Below are positions 18,663 to 36,156 of a stretch of 64,000 nt of DNA, in pieces (positions within the stretch are counted from its first letter, which is position 1; each line of letters begins with the position of its first letter). The stretch comes from Octopus vulgaris. Its lineage: Eukaryota. Made by a program: the position numbers. Location of the stretch: assembly GCA_951406725.2 (NCBI GenBank), contig OX597827.1, positions 64,728,001 through 64,792,000 of the forward strand, given 5' to 3'.

Positions 18663-18832
18663 GGAGTAAACACATAAATGTGAAACAAGGTGGAAAAAAG
18701 AGTACTCAAGTACAAGTAATATGCTTTATTTAAAGCAGCAGAAAATTCAACAAAACCTGTTACTCTGAGTTTCACGTTCCCGTTCGTCGGACAGTTTTTG
18801 CTAGAATTGAATTTTCTGCTGCTTTAAATAAA

Positions 18833-18867
<35 letters not shown>

Positions 18868-19758
18868 AAATGATAAATAAAACATATGCATATATACATA
18901 CATATATGTACGTACCTACATCTATATGTATATATACATGCATATATGGGTACAGGGCACCAAAAAACGTCGAACACAATGAGAAACGAAAACATAAACA
19001 CAAAATCAAGGAAATGGTCATTTTTCTTAAACAACGAAAAAAAAGAGTACAAGATATACAACACAAAGAATATTCCCCTTCTTCAGCCGCCTCTGTTTCA
19101 TCTACTCCACGTTCGAAGGTAAAGACGAGACACGACTTCGTTGAAATAGTACTTCCCGCAAAAGCGAATTAAATAAAATTTGAGATTTTTTTTGTGGAGG
19201 GTAAAAATGGACAGTAAAAACAATGCAAAATATAAACAGTAAAAGACAGGACAAGGAGAATAACAGTAACTCGAACATTGAGGGCTGTTAAGCCAGATCG
19301 AATGAAAAAATATTTTGAATGCTTTGAGGATGGCAAAGAGAGACAGAGAAAGCCATCCACACTTGAAGGAAGCCAGGTCGGAAAGACAGTAGTAGCCTTC
19401 TCATCGCGTGTCAGCGACGGCAGGGAGGAAGATGAGTAAGAGAAAGGGGAAGAGAAAAAGGGAAGGGTTGTAGAGAAAACCAGAAAGAATGAAGGATGAG
19501 AGAGGGAGGGGAAGAGAAAGGTTAAGAGTGCGCACCATTATTAATATTAAGATAAAACTTACTTAGAAGTGGATGCGCGCGTTCTGTCGTAAAATAACAA
19601 ATTAATAAATAAAACATATGCATATATTCATACATATATGTACGTACCTACATCTATATGTATATATACATGCATATATGGGTACAGGACACAAAAAAAC
19701 ATGTCGAACACAATGAGAAACGAAAACATAAACACAAAGGAAATGGACATTTTTCTTA

Positions 19759-19792
<34 letters not shown>

Positions 19793-20173
19793 CAACAATA
19801 AAGGAACGGCCATAATAGGCCATTCACCCACTAGAAATAACAGCCAAAGCTTCAACCGCAAATAAAAGTTAATTCAGTAAACCAGGAGAAAATTTAAAAA
19901 ACATTTACCCTGTAATTTCTTATACGATATACCGTTTCATCTGCTGATTAATGGTAAACTAACCTGATTAAATTAAATCAAGCCAATCTTCCACACTTTT
20001 ATTTGCGGTTGAAGCTTTGGCTGTTATTTCTAGTGGGTGAATGGCCTATTATGGCCGTTCCTTTATTGTTGATGTTGAACTTAAAAATGGTCTTTGACTA
20101 TTTTAATTTTTTCCTACTAGGCCGCTGGTGGCAAAAGAATTCTACAAAATTTTTTTTTGCCACCCTATATTGA

Positions 20174-20229
<56 letters not shown>

Positions 20230-20369
20230 AAAATTAATGGATATCTCTTTAATGCTAATACCGCTTGCTACCACTAATGTTATTGCTATTATTATTTACA
20301 TCAATGTCGCTGATAATAATAACATTTTTACGGTATAGGTTTTGAATATTTATTCATTCTATATATATG

Positions 20370-20419
<50 letters not shown>

Positions 20420-20673
20420 TCATTGGACTGCGCCCATATATATATATATATATTATATATATATATATATTTATTATATAGAAGGAGCTTCTACAGGACT
20501 AGAACTGTTTCATTCAAGAGAAATCTTCAGGAAGCTCAGAGCTTCCTGAAGATTTCTCTTGAATGAAACAGTTCTAGTCCTGTAGAAGCTCCTTCTATAT
20601 AATGAATTAATTTTACTCTGCTATGTATTGAGTACCTTATTTACTGTGGTTAACCCCGAATCAACCCGGGACC

Positions 20674-20714
<41 letters not shown>

Positions 20715-31438: not shown

Positions 31439-31493
<55 letters not shown>

Positions 31494-31748
31494 TCTCTCT
31501 ATCTCTCTCTCCTTTTCTCTGTATATATATATGTATGTATATATAGAATACAAATGAACAAAAGCACGTCCAAGTGATTATGATGTGCGCCTCACAAACC
31601 CAAAATGTTACCGGTTCGACTCCATTGCTCGGCGTCTTAGACAATCTTTTATAGTAATAATAGTCTTGGAGTTGAAGTAAATTTGGCAGAGAAAAAGACA
31701 GCACAAACCCGGCAGAAATACATGCGTATACATTAGTTTGCATGTATG

Positions 31749-31794
<46 letters not shown>

Positions 31795-31840
31795 GTAATA
31801 ATTAGGGTTCAGCAAAGATTTGCTTTACCACATACCGAAG

Positions 31841-31877
<37 letters not shown>

Positions 31878-32261
31878 CTTTTTTAATTGAGGAAAGGAGT
31901 TGTTAAATCAGTGTTGCATAAGATTCGGTGATCGACTGGGTTTTAGCTATACACTGAATAGGCACACACACACACAAGCACACCAAATCAAAGCACACAC
32001 ATACACACCCATGCATACATATGTATATCATTGCTATTATGCAAAGGTGTCGTTAGTCCAACATGCTGCTTTTTCAGAAAACGAAAAAATATAGTTTCAC
32101 CATTCCATAGCAAAACCGTTGTGCGACACTGACAATTTTTGATACCTTGGCATCTAATGAAGCTGGAGATACGATAATTTGGCCAAAAGAATAGTGTATT
32201 TTAGGCAAAGATAAATTTGACAAAAACACATTTGGTCAAACGATAGTTTAGCATAATATCA

Positions 32262-32321
<60 letters not shown>

Positions 32322-34239
32322 AATACAAAGGGGTTTGTATGATTGTGTATAGAGGGATATATATTATTCAAAGGAATTCCAACTCTTTTTTTAATGTTTT
32401 ATTTATATTCTTTATAATATTAATGTAGAATATAGAATATATAGTATAAATAGTATATATAGTAAAATGAAATGAAGTATTGATTGTCTTATTGAATAGA
32501 TGAAATATTGAATATAACATATTAAGGGACGAGTATACTTTCTTGCATTTAAGCAGTCTTCAAGTCCCAGGTTGTGACAGGAGTGTTTCAACTGGCATAC
32601 ATTCGCTAAGCAGATGATACAACCCTGCTGGCAGAAAATAATAAGCATCTTATTCTGCTAGTCAAGAATGAGAGTGAGAAATTTGGGCTGTACCTCAATG
32701 TCAAGAAAACGAAGATCATGTCAACAGCAGCCACAACAAACATCAGCATCAAGATCGATAATGAAGAGATCGAAGTGGTTGATCATTTCATCTTCCTTGG
32801 CTCCAAAATAAATCGAGATGGTAACTGCACTCCAGAAATAAGGCGGCGGATAGTACTAGGCAGAAAGGCAATAGTCAGCATGAGCAAAGTCTGGAAGAGT
32901 AGAGACATCAGCCTCGCTACCAAATGCAGATTGGTGAATGCAATCGTCTTCCCAATAGCAACATATGGATGCGAGACCTGGACACTAAAGAAAGCTGACC
33001 AGAAGAGAATGTTTTCGAGCTTTGGTGTTGGAGAATACTTTTACGGATTCCATGGACAGCGAGGCTCACCAATGGAGAAGCTCTTAACGAGATCAAGCCA
33101 AAACTATGTATGTGTGTGTATATGTTTGTACCTCCCCCAACATCGCTTGACAACCGATGCTGGTGTGTTTACCTCCCCGTAACTTTGCGTTTCAGCAAAA
33201 GAGACCAATAGAATAAGTACTAGGCTTACAAAAAATAAGTCCTGGGGTCGATTTGCTCGACCAGCTTGGTCACAGCAAATGACTGAAACAAATAAAAGAG
33301 TAAGAGTTACTGATGTTACGTGGATCTTCACAAAATATTGCAGTTATACATGGATTCAGACTTTTACATCGATTCTAAACCATTTTTCATGGCATTACAT
33401 TTCCACTTTGTGAAGGCGCATGGCTCAGTGGTTAGATTGTCTGGCTTACAATCATGAGGTAGTGAGTTCGATTCCCTGATTACGCAGTGTGATATGTTCT
33501 TGAGCAAGACGCTTTAGTTCACGTTACTCCAGTTTACTCAGCTGTAGAAATGAGTTGCGACGTCACTGGTGCCTGGCTGTATCAGCCCTTTGCCTTTCCC
33601 TTAGATAACGTCGGTGCCGTGGAGAGGGAAGGCTGGTATCTATGGGTTACTGCTGGTCTTCCATAAACAATCTCGCTCGGACTTGTGTCCCAGAGATGAA
33701 ATTTCTATGTGCAATGCTATGGTAAATCATGACCGAAAGGGGTCTTCACACTTTTACGTTTTCAAATCTACGTCTGTGTTTTTCAACACTCGGAAAACGC
33801 ATGTCAGTAATTACCAATAATCATGTCTTATAGCACATTTACAATATTCAGCAAATTATGTATGTCGGAAATTTAGATTCTAATTATATAAATTGTAATT
33901 ATAACCACGTGTTCTCCCTTCTTTTTAGAAAACGAATACAAGGTATCTTAAATATGCTCTTAAATCAATAATATGCAATGTAAAAGTAAATAAGCTATCA
34001 TTAAATGCCAATTAATAACTGAATAATTAAAACCAATAGTAGTTGTAATATTCAACTTTTGAAACTAATCCCAAGATATGGTTCAACCTACTCAGAAAAT
34101 AATAATGGAAGAAACAAAAGGAACGGGCAAATATTTATTAAAATGAAGAGCTCGGCCATGAAATGAAATGAGATGTAATAATGCTATATATAAAATATAT
34201 ATATGTAGCTATATAAAGTGAAAAGCAAGATCTGCATCG

Positions 34240-34298
<59 letters not shown>

Positions 34299-36156
34299 GA
34301 CTCCGCCGGTTACGACGACGAGGGTCCCAGCTGATACGATCAACGGAACAGCTTGCTCGTGAAATTAACGTGCAAATGGCTGAGCATTCCACAGACACGT
34401 GTACCCATAACGTAGTTATCGGGGATAATCAGCGTGACACAGAGAGTGACAAGGCTGACCCTTTGAAATACAAGTACAACTCATTTTTGCCAGCTGAGTG
34501 GACTGGAGCAACGTGAAATAAAGTGTCTTGCTCAAGGACACAACGCGTCGCCGGGAATCGAACTCACAACCTTACGATCATGAGCCGAATGCCCTAACCA
34601 CTAAGCCACGCGCCCTCACTATATATATATATATATACAAGCACACCTACACATATGTCTATCTCTTCATCCTTTATCAATCTATCTATCTGTTTATCTT
34701 TAAGTATGTGTATATGTGCATTTTGGGGCGAAAACTGATGTTATTTAGCTCCCAGGAGACATCGTCTCCAGTTAGCTATACGAAACACGATCTGTCTGTA
34801 TATTTTCGTACAGGGAAGGTTAGCACCCCAATCCAGTACAAAGCAATATCTGTGGACCGTACGGATTCGAGATTATTTCCCTTCGTCGGCAAAGAATAAC
34901 TGCTAAATACCCGTTCGAAAATATATATAATTTTTAAGTGACTCACAGTCTCTGATTTAATAAAATAGAAACATTGCTGTTCCTAAATCTCTCAAGGAGA
35001 GATATTGAGTAGCAGCACTTTAAAGTAACGATGTTTTGCGAACCTTATTTGGCAGTTCCATTTTGGGGCGAATGCTATCGTAGTTTAGCTCCAGCTGGCT
35101 ATACGACACACGATCTGTGTCCTTATATTTTCAATCAGGACTAGTTATCACCACTCGCTCAGCACAAAACAGTATAAACGTTGCTGTTCCTAAATCTCTC
35201 AACGAGAGATATTCAGTAGCAACACTTTAAAGTAACGATTTTTTGCCAACCTAACATGGCAGTCCCATTTTGCGGCGGATACTGTTGTCTCTATTTTATT
35301 AGATCAGTAACTGCGAGTCACTAAGAAAATTATATATATTTTCGAACGGGCGTTTAGAGTTATTCTGTGCTGATGAAGAGAAATAGCCCTGAAACTGTAC
35401 GGTCCACAGATACTGCTATGTAATAGGTGGGGGTGCTAACCTACCCTGTTCAAAAATAAAAGGACAGATATCGTGTATCGTATAGCCAGCTGGGGACGAT
35501 GTCTCTTGGGGCTAAACAACTGTAGCATTCGCTTCAAAATTGGACTGCCACATTAGGTATGCAAAATATCGTTACTTTATATATATATATATATACATAA
35601 GTAATGTTCGTAGCCTCTTCAAAATGGCTGTCCGTTCGAACGGACTTAACTGCGATTTTTAACCCCAAGAGGATATATCCTCTTGATGGTTAACGATGCA
35701 TAGCTGCATCCGAGATATTGCGAGCAGGGGACCGAACTCCTACCACCTGCTAGTAACGTTGGAAAATCAGCGACTGTAGGTCGCTTGAAACTGTATGTAT
35801 TGCAAACAGAAACGAGCTACAGCTATCTCTAGCGGAAGAGGTGTCCAGGACTGAAGAGAGGCAGAAATAGCCTGAAACTAGACTGGTATGCTGGTCCCGT
35901 CGCTAGAAGGTGGTAGGGGTTCGCTCCCCTGCTCGTAATATCTTGGATGCAACTGTACAACTGTACATCGTTAACCATCGAGTGGTGATGCTCTCTTGGG
36001 GTTAAAATATCGCTGTAAAATCCGTTCGGACGGTCAACCATGTTGAAGAGAACACGAACCGATCGGACAACCATGTCGAAGAAGGTACGAGCATTACTTG
36101 TTAGTACTATTACTGCGTTGATTACTAAGAGAGATTTCAGAAGCACACACACACAC

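What the first reader, a model, noticed from the sequence alone, without database searches (positions are those of the whole stretch)
18719..35898. Rearrangement junctions lie 5-10 nt downstream of predicted cleavage sites
Seen in three unrelated elements. (1) The arm duplicated in inverted form starts at 18750, 10 nt after the GUA site at 18761. (2) The second tandem unit (35175 leftward) starts at the equivalent of 34849, 5 nt after the GUC site. (3) The arm starting at 35898 lies 9 nt after the GUA site at 35888. Inference: self-cleavage defined the 5' end of the RNA template, and RT ran off and switched template there, a genomic footprint of in vivo ribozyme activity. Caveat: the elements at 19791 and 20473 do not fit this offset.
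Basis: partly seen in the sequence, partly recalled or inferred. Interest (0 to 1): 0.75.

Follow-up and report, generated by a model that had tools for sequence, protein, structure and literature searches.

The report
Retroelement copies that start just past a ribozyme
Small ribozyme-carrying retroelements sit in microsatellites as head-to-head or tandem copies, and three shortened copies begin 6-11 bases past the predicted ribozyme cut, which hints at, but does not prove, ribozyme activity in vivo.

Summary
Two parts of the description fail. The elements are not unrelated, because the 34720-35579 and 35599-36143 loci are homologous. The cleavage sites are weak predictions: no motif reaches an Rfam threshold, and one gets a sub-threshold Hammerhead_HH9 hit.

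The loci are non-autonomous Penelope-like/retrozyme-type insertions. They show an inverted 5'-truncated copy next to a fuller copy, a partial tandem, a 42-62 nt tail on one side, and (TA)n/(CA)n targets, all published PLE traits.

Of 9 observable unit 5' ends, 5 lie upstream of the HHR, 3 at +6..+11 and 1 elsewhere. With two misfits counted, chance gives P about 0.005-0.085. In copy B the missing segment runs from the unit's 5' end to +5.

So 5' ends are probably HHR-linked. Cleavage is not shown: run-off predicts offset 0, arrest at a folded helix I fits equally, and element 1 has a U4C core. No eukaryotic collection was available, so the genome-wide histogram was not run.

The parts
18807..18833 (+). 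E1: inverted, 5'-truncated copy. It begins at the equivalent of +11 from the predicted cut and runs into the (TA)n on the right.
   Evidence: 27/27 complementary to 18724-18750. The 3' end merges with (TA)n.
18751..18806 (-). E1: single-copy 5' module with an HHR-like motif. Core CCGACGA 18790->18784, GAAA 18773->18770, GUA 18763->18761, predicted cut 18761|18760.
   Evidence: Own descriptors. Helix I pairs 12 of 13 positions. No Rfam hammerhead hit.
18662..18750 (-). E1: body arm (18750->18724) plus a 62-nt tail (18723->18662) that ends at (TA)n.
19791..20073 (.). Misfit element. 79-nt arms are 100% complementary around a 125-nt loop. (TA)n lies directly on the left; about 100 nt of extra sequence precede (TA)n on the right.
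   Evidence: No HHR by my descriptors. Only a by-eye remnant on the minus strand.
20469..20607 (.). Misfit element P20469: a near-perfect palindrome of two 69-nt copies. Each begins at the 5' edge of an HHR-like motif (-46). Predicted cuts are 20584|20585 (+) and 20492|20491 (-).
   Evidence: Arms 99% complementary with 1 nt between them. HHR-like on both arms, helix I 7 bp. No Rfam hammerhead hit.
34720..35066 (-). E2 copy A: one about 347-nt unit (order Y-Z-H-X in sense). Its HHR is decayed: core CCGACGA 34889->34883, GAAU, GUC 34857->34855.
35067..35285 (-). E2 copy B: x(10 nt)-Y-Z joined directly to X from +6. The whole 5' module (equivalent to 34970->34850, HHR included) is absent.
35286..35579 (+). 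E2 copy C: inverted relative to A and B. It starts at the unit's 5' end and ends ...GTTACTTTA in (TA)n. HHR: core 35370-35376, GAAA 35391-35394, GUC 35402-35404.
   Evidence: 81% to A over 257 nt. Hammerhead_HH9 21.7 bits, E 9e-4 in a 69-nt search. Boundary.
35599..35758 (-). E3 left: inverted 5'-truncated copy. It starts at the equivalent of 35898 (+10) and its 3' end ...ATTACTTAT lies in (TA)n.
   Evidence: 78% to 35898-36059. Ends.
35759..35897 (+). E3: single-copy 5' module with an HHR-like motif. Core CUGAAGA 35851-35857, GAAA 35874-35877, GUA 35886-35888.
   Evidence: Register supported by homology to E2-C. No Rfam hammerhead hit.
35898..36143 (+). E3 right: body (35898-36101) plus a 42-nt tail (36102-36143), followed by (CA)n.

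Best explanation
The loci are insertions of small, non-coding, hammerhead-bearing retroelements of the Penelope-like (PLE)/animal-retrozyme kind.

Unit structure (shown by anatomy). Each unit has a 5' module that ends with a type-I HHR-like motif, then a body, then a first 3' end near a ...TTACTT motif. An optional 42-62 nt tail leads to a second 3' end.

Insertion (inferred from published PLE biochemistry). Both strands of a break in a (TA)n/(CA)n microsatellite prime reverse transcription, which gives head-to-head copies with their 3' ends outward. Jumps from the 5' end of one template to the RT entry site of another give partial tandems.

Template 5' ends come in two classes. One is the unit's true 5' end. 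The other lies 6-11 nt past the HHR scissile bond, at or just beyond the helix I 3' strand. I take the second class to be HHR-dependent. Either the RNA had self-cleaved and its new 5' end stayed held in helix I, or RT stopped at the folded ribozyme. The cDNA end was then joined to the opposite cDNA (E1, E3) or to the next template's tail end (E2 copy B). Sequence alone cannot say which of the two happened.

Because a type-I HHR lies upstream of its own cut, such copies lose the ribozyme and are dead on arrival.
For: Architecture matches published PLE traits. These are an adjacent inverted 5'-truncated copy, partial tandems, a tail at one end and a microsatellite/AT-rich target (PMC8557442 passages; PMC3846280 passages). 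A PLE protein cuts and extends both strands and starts RT at two internal sites that delimit the tail (PMC11167929 main text). In the window, E1, E3 and P20469 are head-to-head pairs flanked by (TA)n/(CA)n, and E2 is a tandem plus an inverted copy. A tail is present on one side only.

HHR-like cores are enriched: 16 CYGANGA...GAAW pairs against 3.98 expected (maximum 10 in 200 simulations). The relaxed descriptor gives 5 hits against 0.63 expected. E2-C gives a sub-threshold Hammerhead_HH9 hit.

Of 9 observable unit 5' ends in the four HHR-bearing loci, 3 lie at +6, +10 and +11. Five lie upstream of the HHR (-46, -46, -46, -119, -130), and the last two of these fall at homologous positions in E2 and E3. 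One lies at +126.

Copy B's missing segment starts within 1 nt of the point where copy C begins, and ends at +5. For a random deletion this double coincidence has a probability of about 5e-4. Chance for the junction cluster is 5e-3 to 8.5e-2 with the misfits counted.
Against: - No motif reaches an Rfam gathering score, and three of four tight-window scans give no hammerhead hit.
- Folding energies are not better than shuffles (z from +1.08 to -0.66), and helix II is imperfect in E2 and E3.
- The offsets are +6 to +11, not the 0 that a clean run-off would give.
- E1 and E2-A have C at core position 4.
- In vitro, HHR mutants of a real PLE did not change insertion, and no RNA-seq reads started at the HHR site.
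- There are only three junctions, the window was chosen post hoc, and E2 and E3 are related.
- E2 and E3 copies are only 73-87% alike, so they are old or came from diverged templates.
- P20469 and the 19791 element do not fit.
- No RT/GIY-YIG gene is in the window: 0 real Pfam hits in the 14 ORFs sent, out of 71 listed.
- No other genomic copies could be fetched.
Confidence: 0.5

Rival explanations
1. HHR self-cleavage made the template's 5' end, RT ran off there and switched template, so the junctions are footprints of ribozyme activity in vivo.
For: Three shortened copies start within 11 nt 3' of the predicted cut. Copy B lacks exactly the would-be 5' cleavage fragment. U4C hammerheads can still work in vivo in a viroid (PMC3088659 passage).
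Against: The expected offset is 0, and 5-10 nt are missing each time. There is no microhomology at the junctions that would explain the loss (by eye). Published in vitro and RNA-seq data for one PLE argue against cleaved RNA as the main template. Ribozyme activity is untested and the motifs score poorly.
Confidence: 0.3
2. RT arrest without cleavage. The folded, possibly dimeric or protein-bound, HHR blocks the RT at the base of helix I, and the stalled cDNA is joined there.
For: Junctions lie at or 0-4 nt beyond the helix I 3' strand. That strand spans +1..+6 in E2, about +1..+8 in E3 and +1..+10(13) in E1. This version explains the non-zero offset and tolerates a crippled U4C core.
Against: Helices of 6-10 bp are weak blocks, and full-length copies show that RT can pass them. 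Predicted folds are not unusually stable. Three points cannot establish a correlation.
Confidence: 0.2
3. Coincidence. These are ordinary random 5' truncations and one DNA-level internal deletion that happen to fall near a weakly predicted motif.
For: The sample is small, the window was chosen post hoc, and P reaches 0.085 with a 30-nt window and all six junctions counted. Two of 5 elements do not fit. The HHR registers are manual.
Against: Both ends of copy B's gap coincide with landmarks (about 5e-4). Two independent alignments give the same +6. The upstream 5' ends also cluster.
Confidence: 0.2
4. DNA-level or inherited structures. These could be fold-back repair at hairpin-prone (TA)n tracts, MITE-like inverted repeats, or a self-paired element whose master copy already carries the inverted arms.
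For: All five structures sit in or beside (TA)n. Arms are 99-100% identical in E1, P20469 and the 19791 element. Retrozyme RNAs are described as highly self-paired (PMC7229834 passage).
Against: The outer ends are asymmetric: one copy stops near ...TTACTT and the other carries a tail, as in PLE insertions. E2 and E3 arms are only 78-81% alike. The inverted copies end like 3' ends of separate copies.
Confidence: 0.1

Closest known systems
Penelope-like element (PLE) insertions: pLTR partial tandems, adjacent inverted 5'-truncated copy, 30-40 bp tail, HHR in the repeat (PMC8557442, PMC3846280, PMC4209133, PMC11167929)
   Same: Head-to-head and partial-tandem layout, a tail on one side only, (TA)n/(CA)n targets, and an HHR-like motif in the repeated part. 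HHRs on opposite strands a few hundred bp apart, as reported in PMC4209133.
   Different: No RT/GIY-YIG ORF in the window and units of only about 70-350 nt. Tails are 42-62 nt rather than 30-40. In E1 and E3 the inverted copy lacks the HHR-bearing part, whereas the described inverted pLTRs are nearly full length (37 bp shorter in Pen2a_Av).
Animal non-LTR retrozymes: 150-450 bp tandem repeats with type-I HHR, proposed to be PLE-dependent (PMC7229834; bioRxiv 10.64898/2026.07.22.740005)
   Same: A unit of about 347 nt with a type-I HHR-like motif, low GC (0.40), tandem repeats, short helix III with a palindromic loop.
   Different: Only two to three units are present, mixed with inverted copies. 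The HHRs are imperfect and below Rfam cutoffs. Circular RNA and expression are unknown here.
R2 retrotransposon: an HDV-like ribozyme sets the RNA 5' end and shapes the 5' junctions (PMC3774820; search listing and start of abstract only)
   Same: The idea that ribozyme processing defines the template's 5' end and thereby the genomic 5' junction.
   Different: A different ribozyme class. R2 keeps its ribozyme downstream of the cut, whereas a type-I HHR is lost from the downstream product, so such copies cannot propagate. That the ribozyme is retained in R2 RNA is recalled, not read here.
L1 5' inversions by twin priming
   Same: Both DNA ends at the target prime cDNA, which gives inverted segments.
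   Different: Twin priming inverts a different part of one RNA. Here the same part is present twice, which implies two templates or two rounds.

Membership tests
Hammerhead ribozyme (type I) | Conserved core CUGANGA ... GAAA ... UH (consensus as quoted in PMC8557442 methods) | tested here: inconclusive
   The core is complete in E2-C, E3 and both arms of P20469. E1 has C at position 4. E2-A has C at position 4 and GAAU.
Hammerhead ribozyme (type I) | Three helices around the core | tested here: inconclusive
   Helix I is 6-12 bp in all. Helix III is 2-4 bp. Helix II is 3-4 bp, with a mismatch or bulge in E2-C, E2-A, E3 and P20469. The strict descriptor finds only E1. Minimum-energy folds are not better than shuffles.
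Hammerhead ribozyme (type I) | Score at or above the Rfam gathering cutoff for a hammerhead model | tested here: not met
   0 hits at gathering over the whole window. The best is E2-C, HH9 at 21.7 bits against 52. None for E3, E1 or P20469.
Hammerhead ribozyme (type I) | Self-cleavage at the GUH site | not testable with these tools
   Needs transcription/cleavage assays or mapping of 5'-OH RNA ends.
Penelope-like element insertion (non-autonomous derivative) | Inverted 5'-truncated copy adjacent to the 5' end, and/or a partial tandem | tested here: met
   E1, E3 and P20469 are head-to-head. E2 is a tandem (A, B) plus an inverted copy C.
Penelope-like element insertion (non-autonomous derivative) | Optional short tail at one end, reflecting two RT start sites | tested here: met
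   One copy ends near ...TTACTT and its partner continues 42-62 nt further. This is longer than the published 30-40 bp.
Penelope-like element insertion (non-autonomous derivative) | AT-rich or microsatellite target | tested here: met
   (TA)n or (CA)n abuts the outer ends of E1, E2-C, E3, P20469 and the 19791 element.
Penelope-like element insertion (non-autonomous derivative) | Sequence relationship to the pLTR of an autonomous PLE with RT and GIY-YIG endonuclease | not testable with these tools
   No such ORF was found among the 14 ORFs sent to Pfam out of 71 listed. No eukaryotic genome collection was available to look for the partner.
Animal non-LTR retrozyme | Tandem repeats of 150-450 bp, each with a type-I HHR, and low GC | tested here: inconclusive
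   The E2 unit is about 347 nt and GC is 0.40. However, only one of the two tandem units keeps the HHR.
Animal non-LTR retrozyme | Expressed as small circular RNA | not testable with these tools
   No RNA data.

The most novel reading that the evidence does not exclude
The hammerhead is what creates the puzzling tandem and inverted architecture of PLE-type insertions. In vivo a sizeable share of templates are HHR-processed. The new 5' end stays clamped in helix I, so cDNA synthesis stops at the base of that helix. It then jumps either to the RT entry site of another RNA, which makes a tandem, or onto the cDNA primed from the opposite strand, which makes an inversion. Each such event leaves a ribozyme-less copy whose start marks the cut.
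Probability: 0.2. Interest if true: 0.75.

Novelty: new member of a known kind. Interest (0 to 1): 0.5.

Why it matters
The role of hammerheads in endonuclease-bearing PLEs and animal retrozymes is openly described as unclear (PMC8557442 passage; preprint discussion). The one biochemical study found cleavage dispensable in vitro. A reproducible class of genomic copies that start just past the ribozyme would be the first in vivo trace linking the HHR to the retrotransposition cycle. It can be tested with nothing more than a genome assembly, by a histogram of 5' ends per family. In the searches made I found no paper reporting this link. Those searches cover only CC-licensed PMC papers and bioRxiv, and supplements were not read.

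Tried and rejected
- Rfam at gathering and at E<=10 on 19 kb, 1.4 kb and 171 nt gave no hammerhead. It gave only miRNA-like scores for the palindromes and microsatellites, which I reject as hairpin artefacts.
- A covariance model of my own was not built, because MAFFT misaligned the five cores.
- The strict HHR descriptor was too strict and found only E1.
- The relaxed descriptor's extra hit at 32563(-) has U at core position 3 without the compensating A8. It lies in unrelated sequence, so I treat it as chance.
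- An alternative E3 register (GUC 35894-35896, which would put the arm at +2) was considered. I rejected it because helix I would be only 2 bp, and homology to E2-C supports GUA.
- A snap-back (self-priming) origin for E1 and E3 was considered. It predicts symmetric outer ends, which are not seen.
- The window was searched for further copies of E1, E2 and E3. Only microsatellite matches came back.
- ARAGORN found no tRNA.
- Pfam on 14 ORFs gave only sub-threshold noise.

Full report
WHAT THE WINDOW IS. The window is AT-rich (GC 0.22-0.43 per 2 kb). It is full of (TA)n and (CA)n microsatellites and has no long ORFs (71 stop-to-stop frames of at least 110 aa). I sent 14 of these to Pfam and none gave a real domain. 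It looks like non-coding animal DNA. I did not determine the organism.

CHECK OF THE THREE JUNCTIONS.

E1. Arms 18724-18750 and 18807-18833 are 27 of 27 complementary. The 56-nt loop carries an HHR-like motif on the minus strand. Its core is CCGACGA, helix II is ACG/CGU, and the rest reads GAAA then GUA. Helix I pairs at 12 of 13 positions. The predicted cut is 18761|18760, and the arm starts 10 nt later, at +11.

E2. The locus 34720-35579 has three copies of a unit of about 347 nt.
- Copy A is 34720-35066, minus sense.
- Copy B is 35067-35285, minus sense.
- Copy C is 35286-35579, plus sense, 81% identical to A over 257 nt.

B aligns to A up to 35175 = 34849, and to C up to 35410. Both positions are +6 from the GUC site, which is 34857->34855 in A and 35402-35404 in C.

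E3. The stretch 35606-35758 is the reverse complement of 35898-36059 at 78%. The single-copy centre 35759-35897 carries CUGAAGA...GAAA...GUA (35886-35888). The arm therefore starts at +10, or at +7 if a 2-nt indel is allowed.

WHAT IS WRONG IN THE DESCRIPTION.

The elements are not unrelated. E2-C and E3 align at 61% over 173 nt across the HHR and downstream (E 7e-5), with a second segment at 78% over 37 nt. A multiple alignment puts their upstream ends within about 8 nt of each other. E1 shares only a 13/14 match at the core with E2-A (E 1.5) and a short 3' motif with E3, so its relationship is unresolved.

The 'predicted cleavage sites' are soft.
- Rfam finds no hammerhead at gathering in the whole window, nor at E<=10 in 19 kb, 1.4 kb or 171 nt.
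- In 67-74 nt windows only E2-C gives one: Hammerhead_HH9 at 21.7 bits against a cutoff of 52, E 9e-4, plus RAGATH-1-hammerhead at 14 bits.
- E3, E1 and the 20469 palindrome give none.
- Predicted folds are no more stable than shuffles (z +1.08, +0.20, -0.55, -0.66, -0.24).

Against that, core pairs CYGANGA-N7-20-GAAW occur 16 times against 3.98 expected (sd 2.0, maximum 10 in 200 Markov simulations). A relaxed three-helix descriptor gives 5 hits against 0.63 expected (30 simulations, maximum 3). Four of the five hits are E1, E3 and the two arms of the 20469 palindrome. The fifth (32563, minus strand) I take as chance. E2-C and E2-A are missed because of helix II mismatches. I conclude these are real but weak or decayed minimal type-I hammerhead motifs, of the kind reported in PLEs (PMC4209133 passages).

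ANATOMY. Reading each copy in the sense of its HHR, every unit has the same order.
- H: a 5' module that ends with the HHR. It is 46 nt up to the cut in E1 and P20469, about 118 nt in E2 and 130 nt in E3.
- X and Y: the body.
- A first 3' end near a ...TTACTT motif.
- Z: an optional tail of 51 nt in E2, 42 nt in E3 and 62 nt in E1.

The loci then read as follows.
- E2-C is H-X-Y followed by (TA)n.
- The A/B array is x(10 nt)-Y-Z | X(from +6)-Y-Z | H-X.
- E3 is an inverted X'-Y' copy ending in (TA)n, then H'-X'-Y'-Z' ending in (CA)n.
- E1 is an inverted X copy ending in (TA)n, then H-X-tail ending in (TA)n.
- P20469 (20469-20607) is two 69-nt copies, 99% complementary, joined exactly at the 5' edge of their HHR-like motifs. 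Extra sequence precedes (TA)n on the right only.

All copies have their 3' ends outward in microsatellites.

This matches the published PLE pattern. That pattern comprises partial tandems (pLTRs), an adjacent inverted 5'-truncated copy, a 30-40 bp tail at one end, a (TA)n/(CA)n bias and an HHR in the repeat (PMC8557442 passages; PMC3846280 passages). It also fits the finding that a purified PLE protein cuts and extends both DNA strands and starts RT at two internal sites that delimit the tail (PMC11167929 main text). Animal tandem HHR repeats of 150-450 bp ('non-LTR retrozymes') are proposed to be PLE-dependent (PMC7229834 passages; preprint 10.64898/2026.07.22.740005 abstract and discussion). 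I therefore file the loci as non-autonomous PLE-type/retrozyme-type elements. No RT gene is in the window.

THE JUNCTION PATTERN. The four HHR-bearing loci show 9 observable unit 5' ends.
- Five lie upstream of the HHR, at -46 (E1), -46 and -46 (P20469), -119 (E2-C) and -130 (E3 right).
- Three lie at +6 (E2-B), +10 (E3 left) and +11 (E1 inverted copy).
- One lies at +126 (start of the A/B array).

The most telling case is copy B. Its tail ends ...GTTT and is joined directly to X at +6. Copy C begins within 1 nt of that same tail-end/unit-start boundary. The missing piece is therefore exactly 'unit 5' end to +5'. For a random deletion, both ends landing there has a probability of about 5e-4.

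For the cluster itself, assuming uniform breakpoints:
- the three named junctions give 1.5e-4;
- at least 3 of 4 truncated starts gives 4.9e-4;
- at least 3 of 6, counting P20469 and the 19791 element as misses, gives 5e-3 (11-nt window), 1.3e-2 (15 nt) and 8.5e-2 (30 nt).

For the 19791 element I used a by-eye HHR remnant on the minus strand, which puts the arm at about +54. No scan supports that motif. The window was chosen after the fact, two of the three junctions come from related families, and no further copies exist in the window. The pattern is suggestive, not established.

MECHANISM. What is shown is the layout, the two 3' ends, the two classes of 5' ends and the target preference.

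What is inferred from the literature is this. Both strands of a microsatellite break prime cDNA synthesis on two templates, and the two cDNAs are then joined head to head. Tandems arise when RT, on reaching a template's 5' end, re-enters at the tail-end start site of another RNA. The 73-87% identity between adjacent units fits either different source RNAs or old age.

That predicts a junction at +1. The observed positions are +6, +10 (or +7) and +11. They lie at or 0-4 nt beyond the helix I 3' strand, which spans +1..+6 in E2, about +1..+8 in E3 and +1..+10(13) in E1. Two readings fit. In the first, the RNA was cleaved but its new end stayed paired in helix I. In the second, the RNA was not cleaved and RT stalled at the folded motif. 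DNA sequence alone cannot separate them.

Four points count against cleavage.
- E1 is a young insertion (27/27 arms) with a U4C core. That change lowers activity considerably in vitro, although a viroid tolerates it in vivo (PMC3088659 passage).
- E2-A shares the same CCGACGA core, so this variant seems to have been mobile.
- HHR mutants of the Anolis PLE did not affect insertion in vitro.
- No RNA-seq reads began at that PLE's HHR site.

A type-I HHR lies 5' of its own cut. Any copy made from the downstream product therefore lacks the ribozyme and cannot found a lineage. This agrees with these copies appearing only as partners inside composite insertions.

COMPARISON AND NOVELTY. The elements are new members of a known kind. 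The proposed link between PLE-type junctions and the HHR site did not turn up in my literature searches. The papers I read state that the HHR's role is unclear. The closest precedent in concept is R2, whose HDV-like ribozyme sets the RNA 5' end and shapes the 5' junctions (PMC3774820, listing and start of abstract only).

WHAT STAYED UNCHECKED. The decisive genome-wide histogram could not be run. Supplements of the cited papers may bear on this and were not read, for example the genomic end coverage in the Anolis PLE study.

Noticed in passing
18790-18784 (-) and 34889-34883 (-): Two separate insertions (E1 and E2 copy A) share the same variant core CCGACGA (C at hammerhead positions 4 and 7) plus the following AAGGGAA/AACGGGAA. 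Relatives E2-C, E3 and P20469 have CUGAUGA or CUGAAGA. Either a U4C subfamily was mobile, or CpG-creating and CpG-destroying transitions recur here.
   Followed up: partly
18865-19038 and 19597-19767: A direct repeat of about 175 bp at 94-95% identity, spaced 732 bp apart. It starts right after E1's (TA)n and ends right at the (TA)n before the 19791 element. It may be a tandem segmental duplication or an LTR-like pair.
   Followed up: no
34544-34613 (-), extending to about 34300: A tRNA-like stretch (Rfam tRNA 25.1 bits, below the cutoff of 29; ARAGORN finds nothing). It is probably a tRNA-derived SINE abutting the (TA)n to the left of E2.
   Followed up: partly
34910-34925 (E2 5' module); 35620-35640 and 36010-36030 (E3 arms): A shared palindromic TTCGAACGG-type motif, resembling a pol III B box (recalled). 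It sits in different modules of the two related families.
   Followed up: no
36030-36093: A tandem duplication of about 32 nt inside the E3 right copy, just before its ...ATTACTT 3' motif. It is absent from the inverted left copy (by eye).
   Followed up: no
20495-20581: The P20469 palindrome scores 74.6 bits against the mir-3199 model (cutoff 100) on both strands. This reflects a perfect hairpin and is not evidence of a miRNA.
   Followed up: yes
28001-30000: A strong GC skew (+0.41) in a 2-kb block, probably a purine-rich simple repeat. ORFs there gave only noise in Pfam.
   Followed up: no
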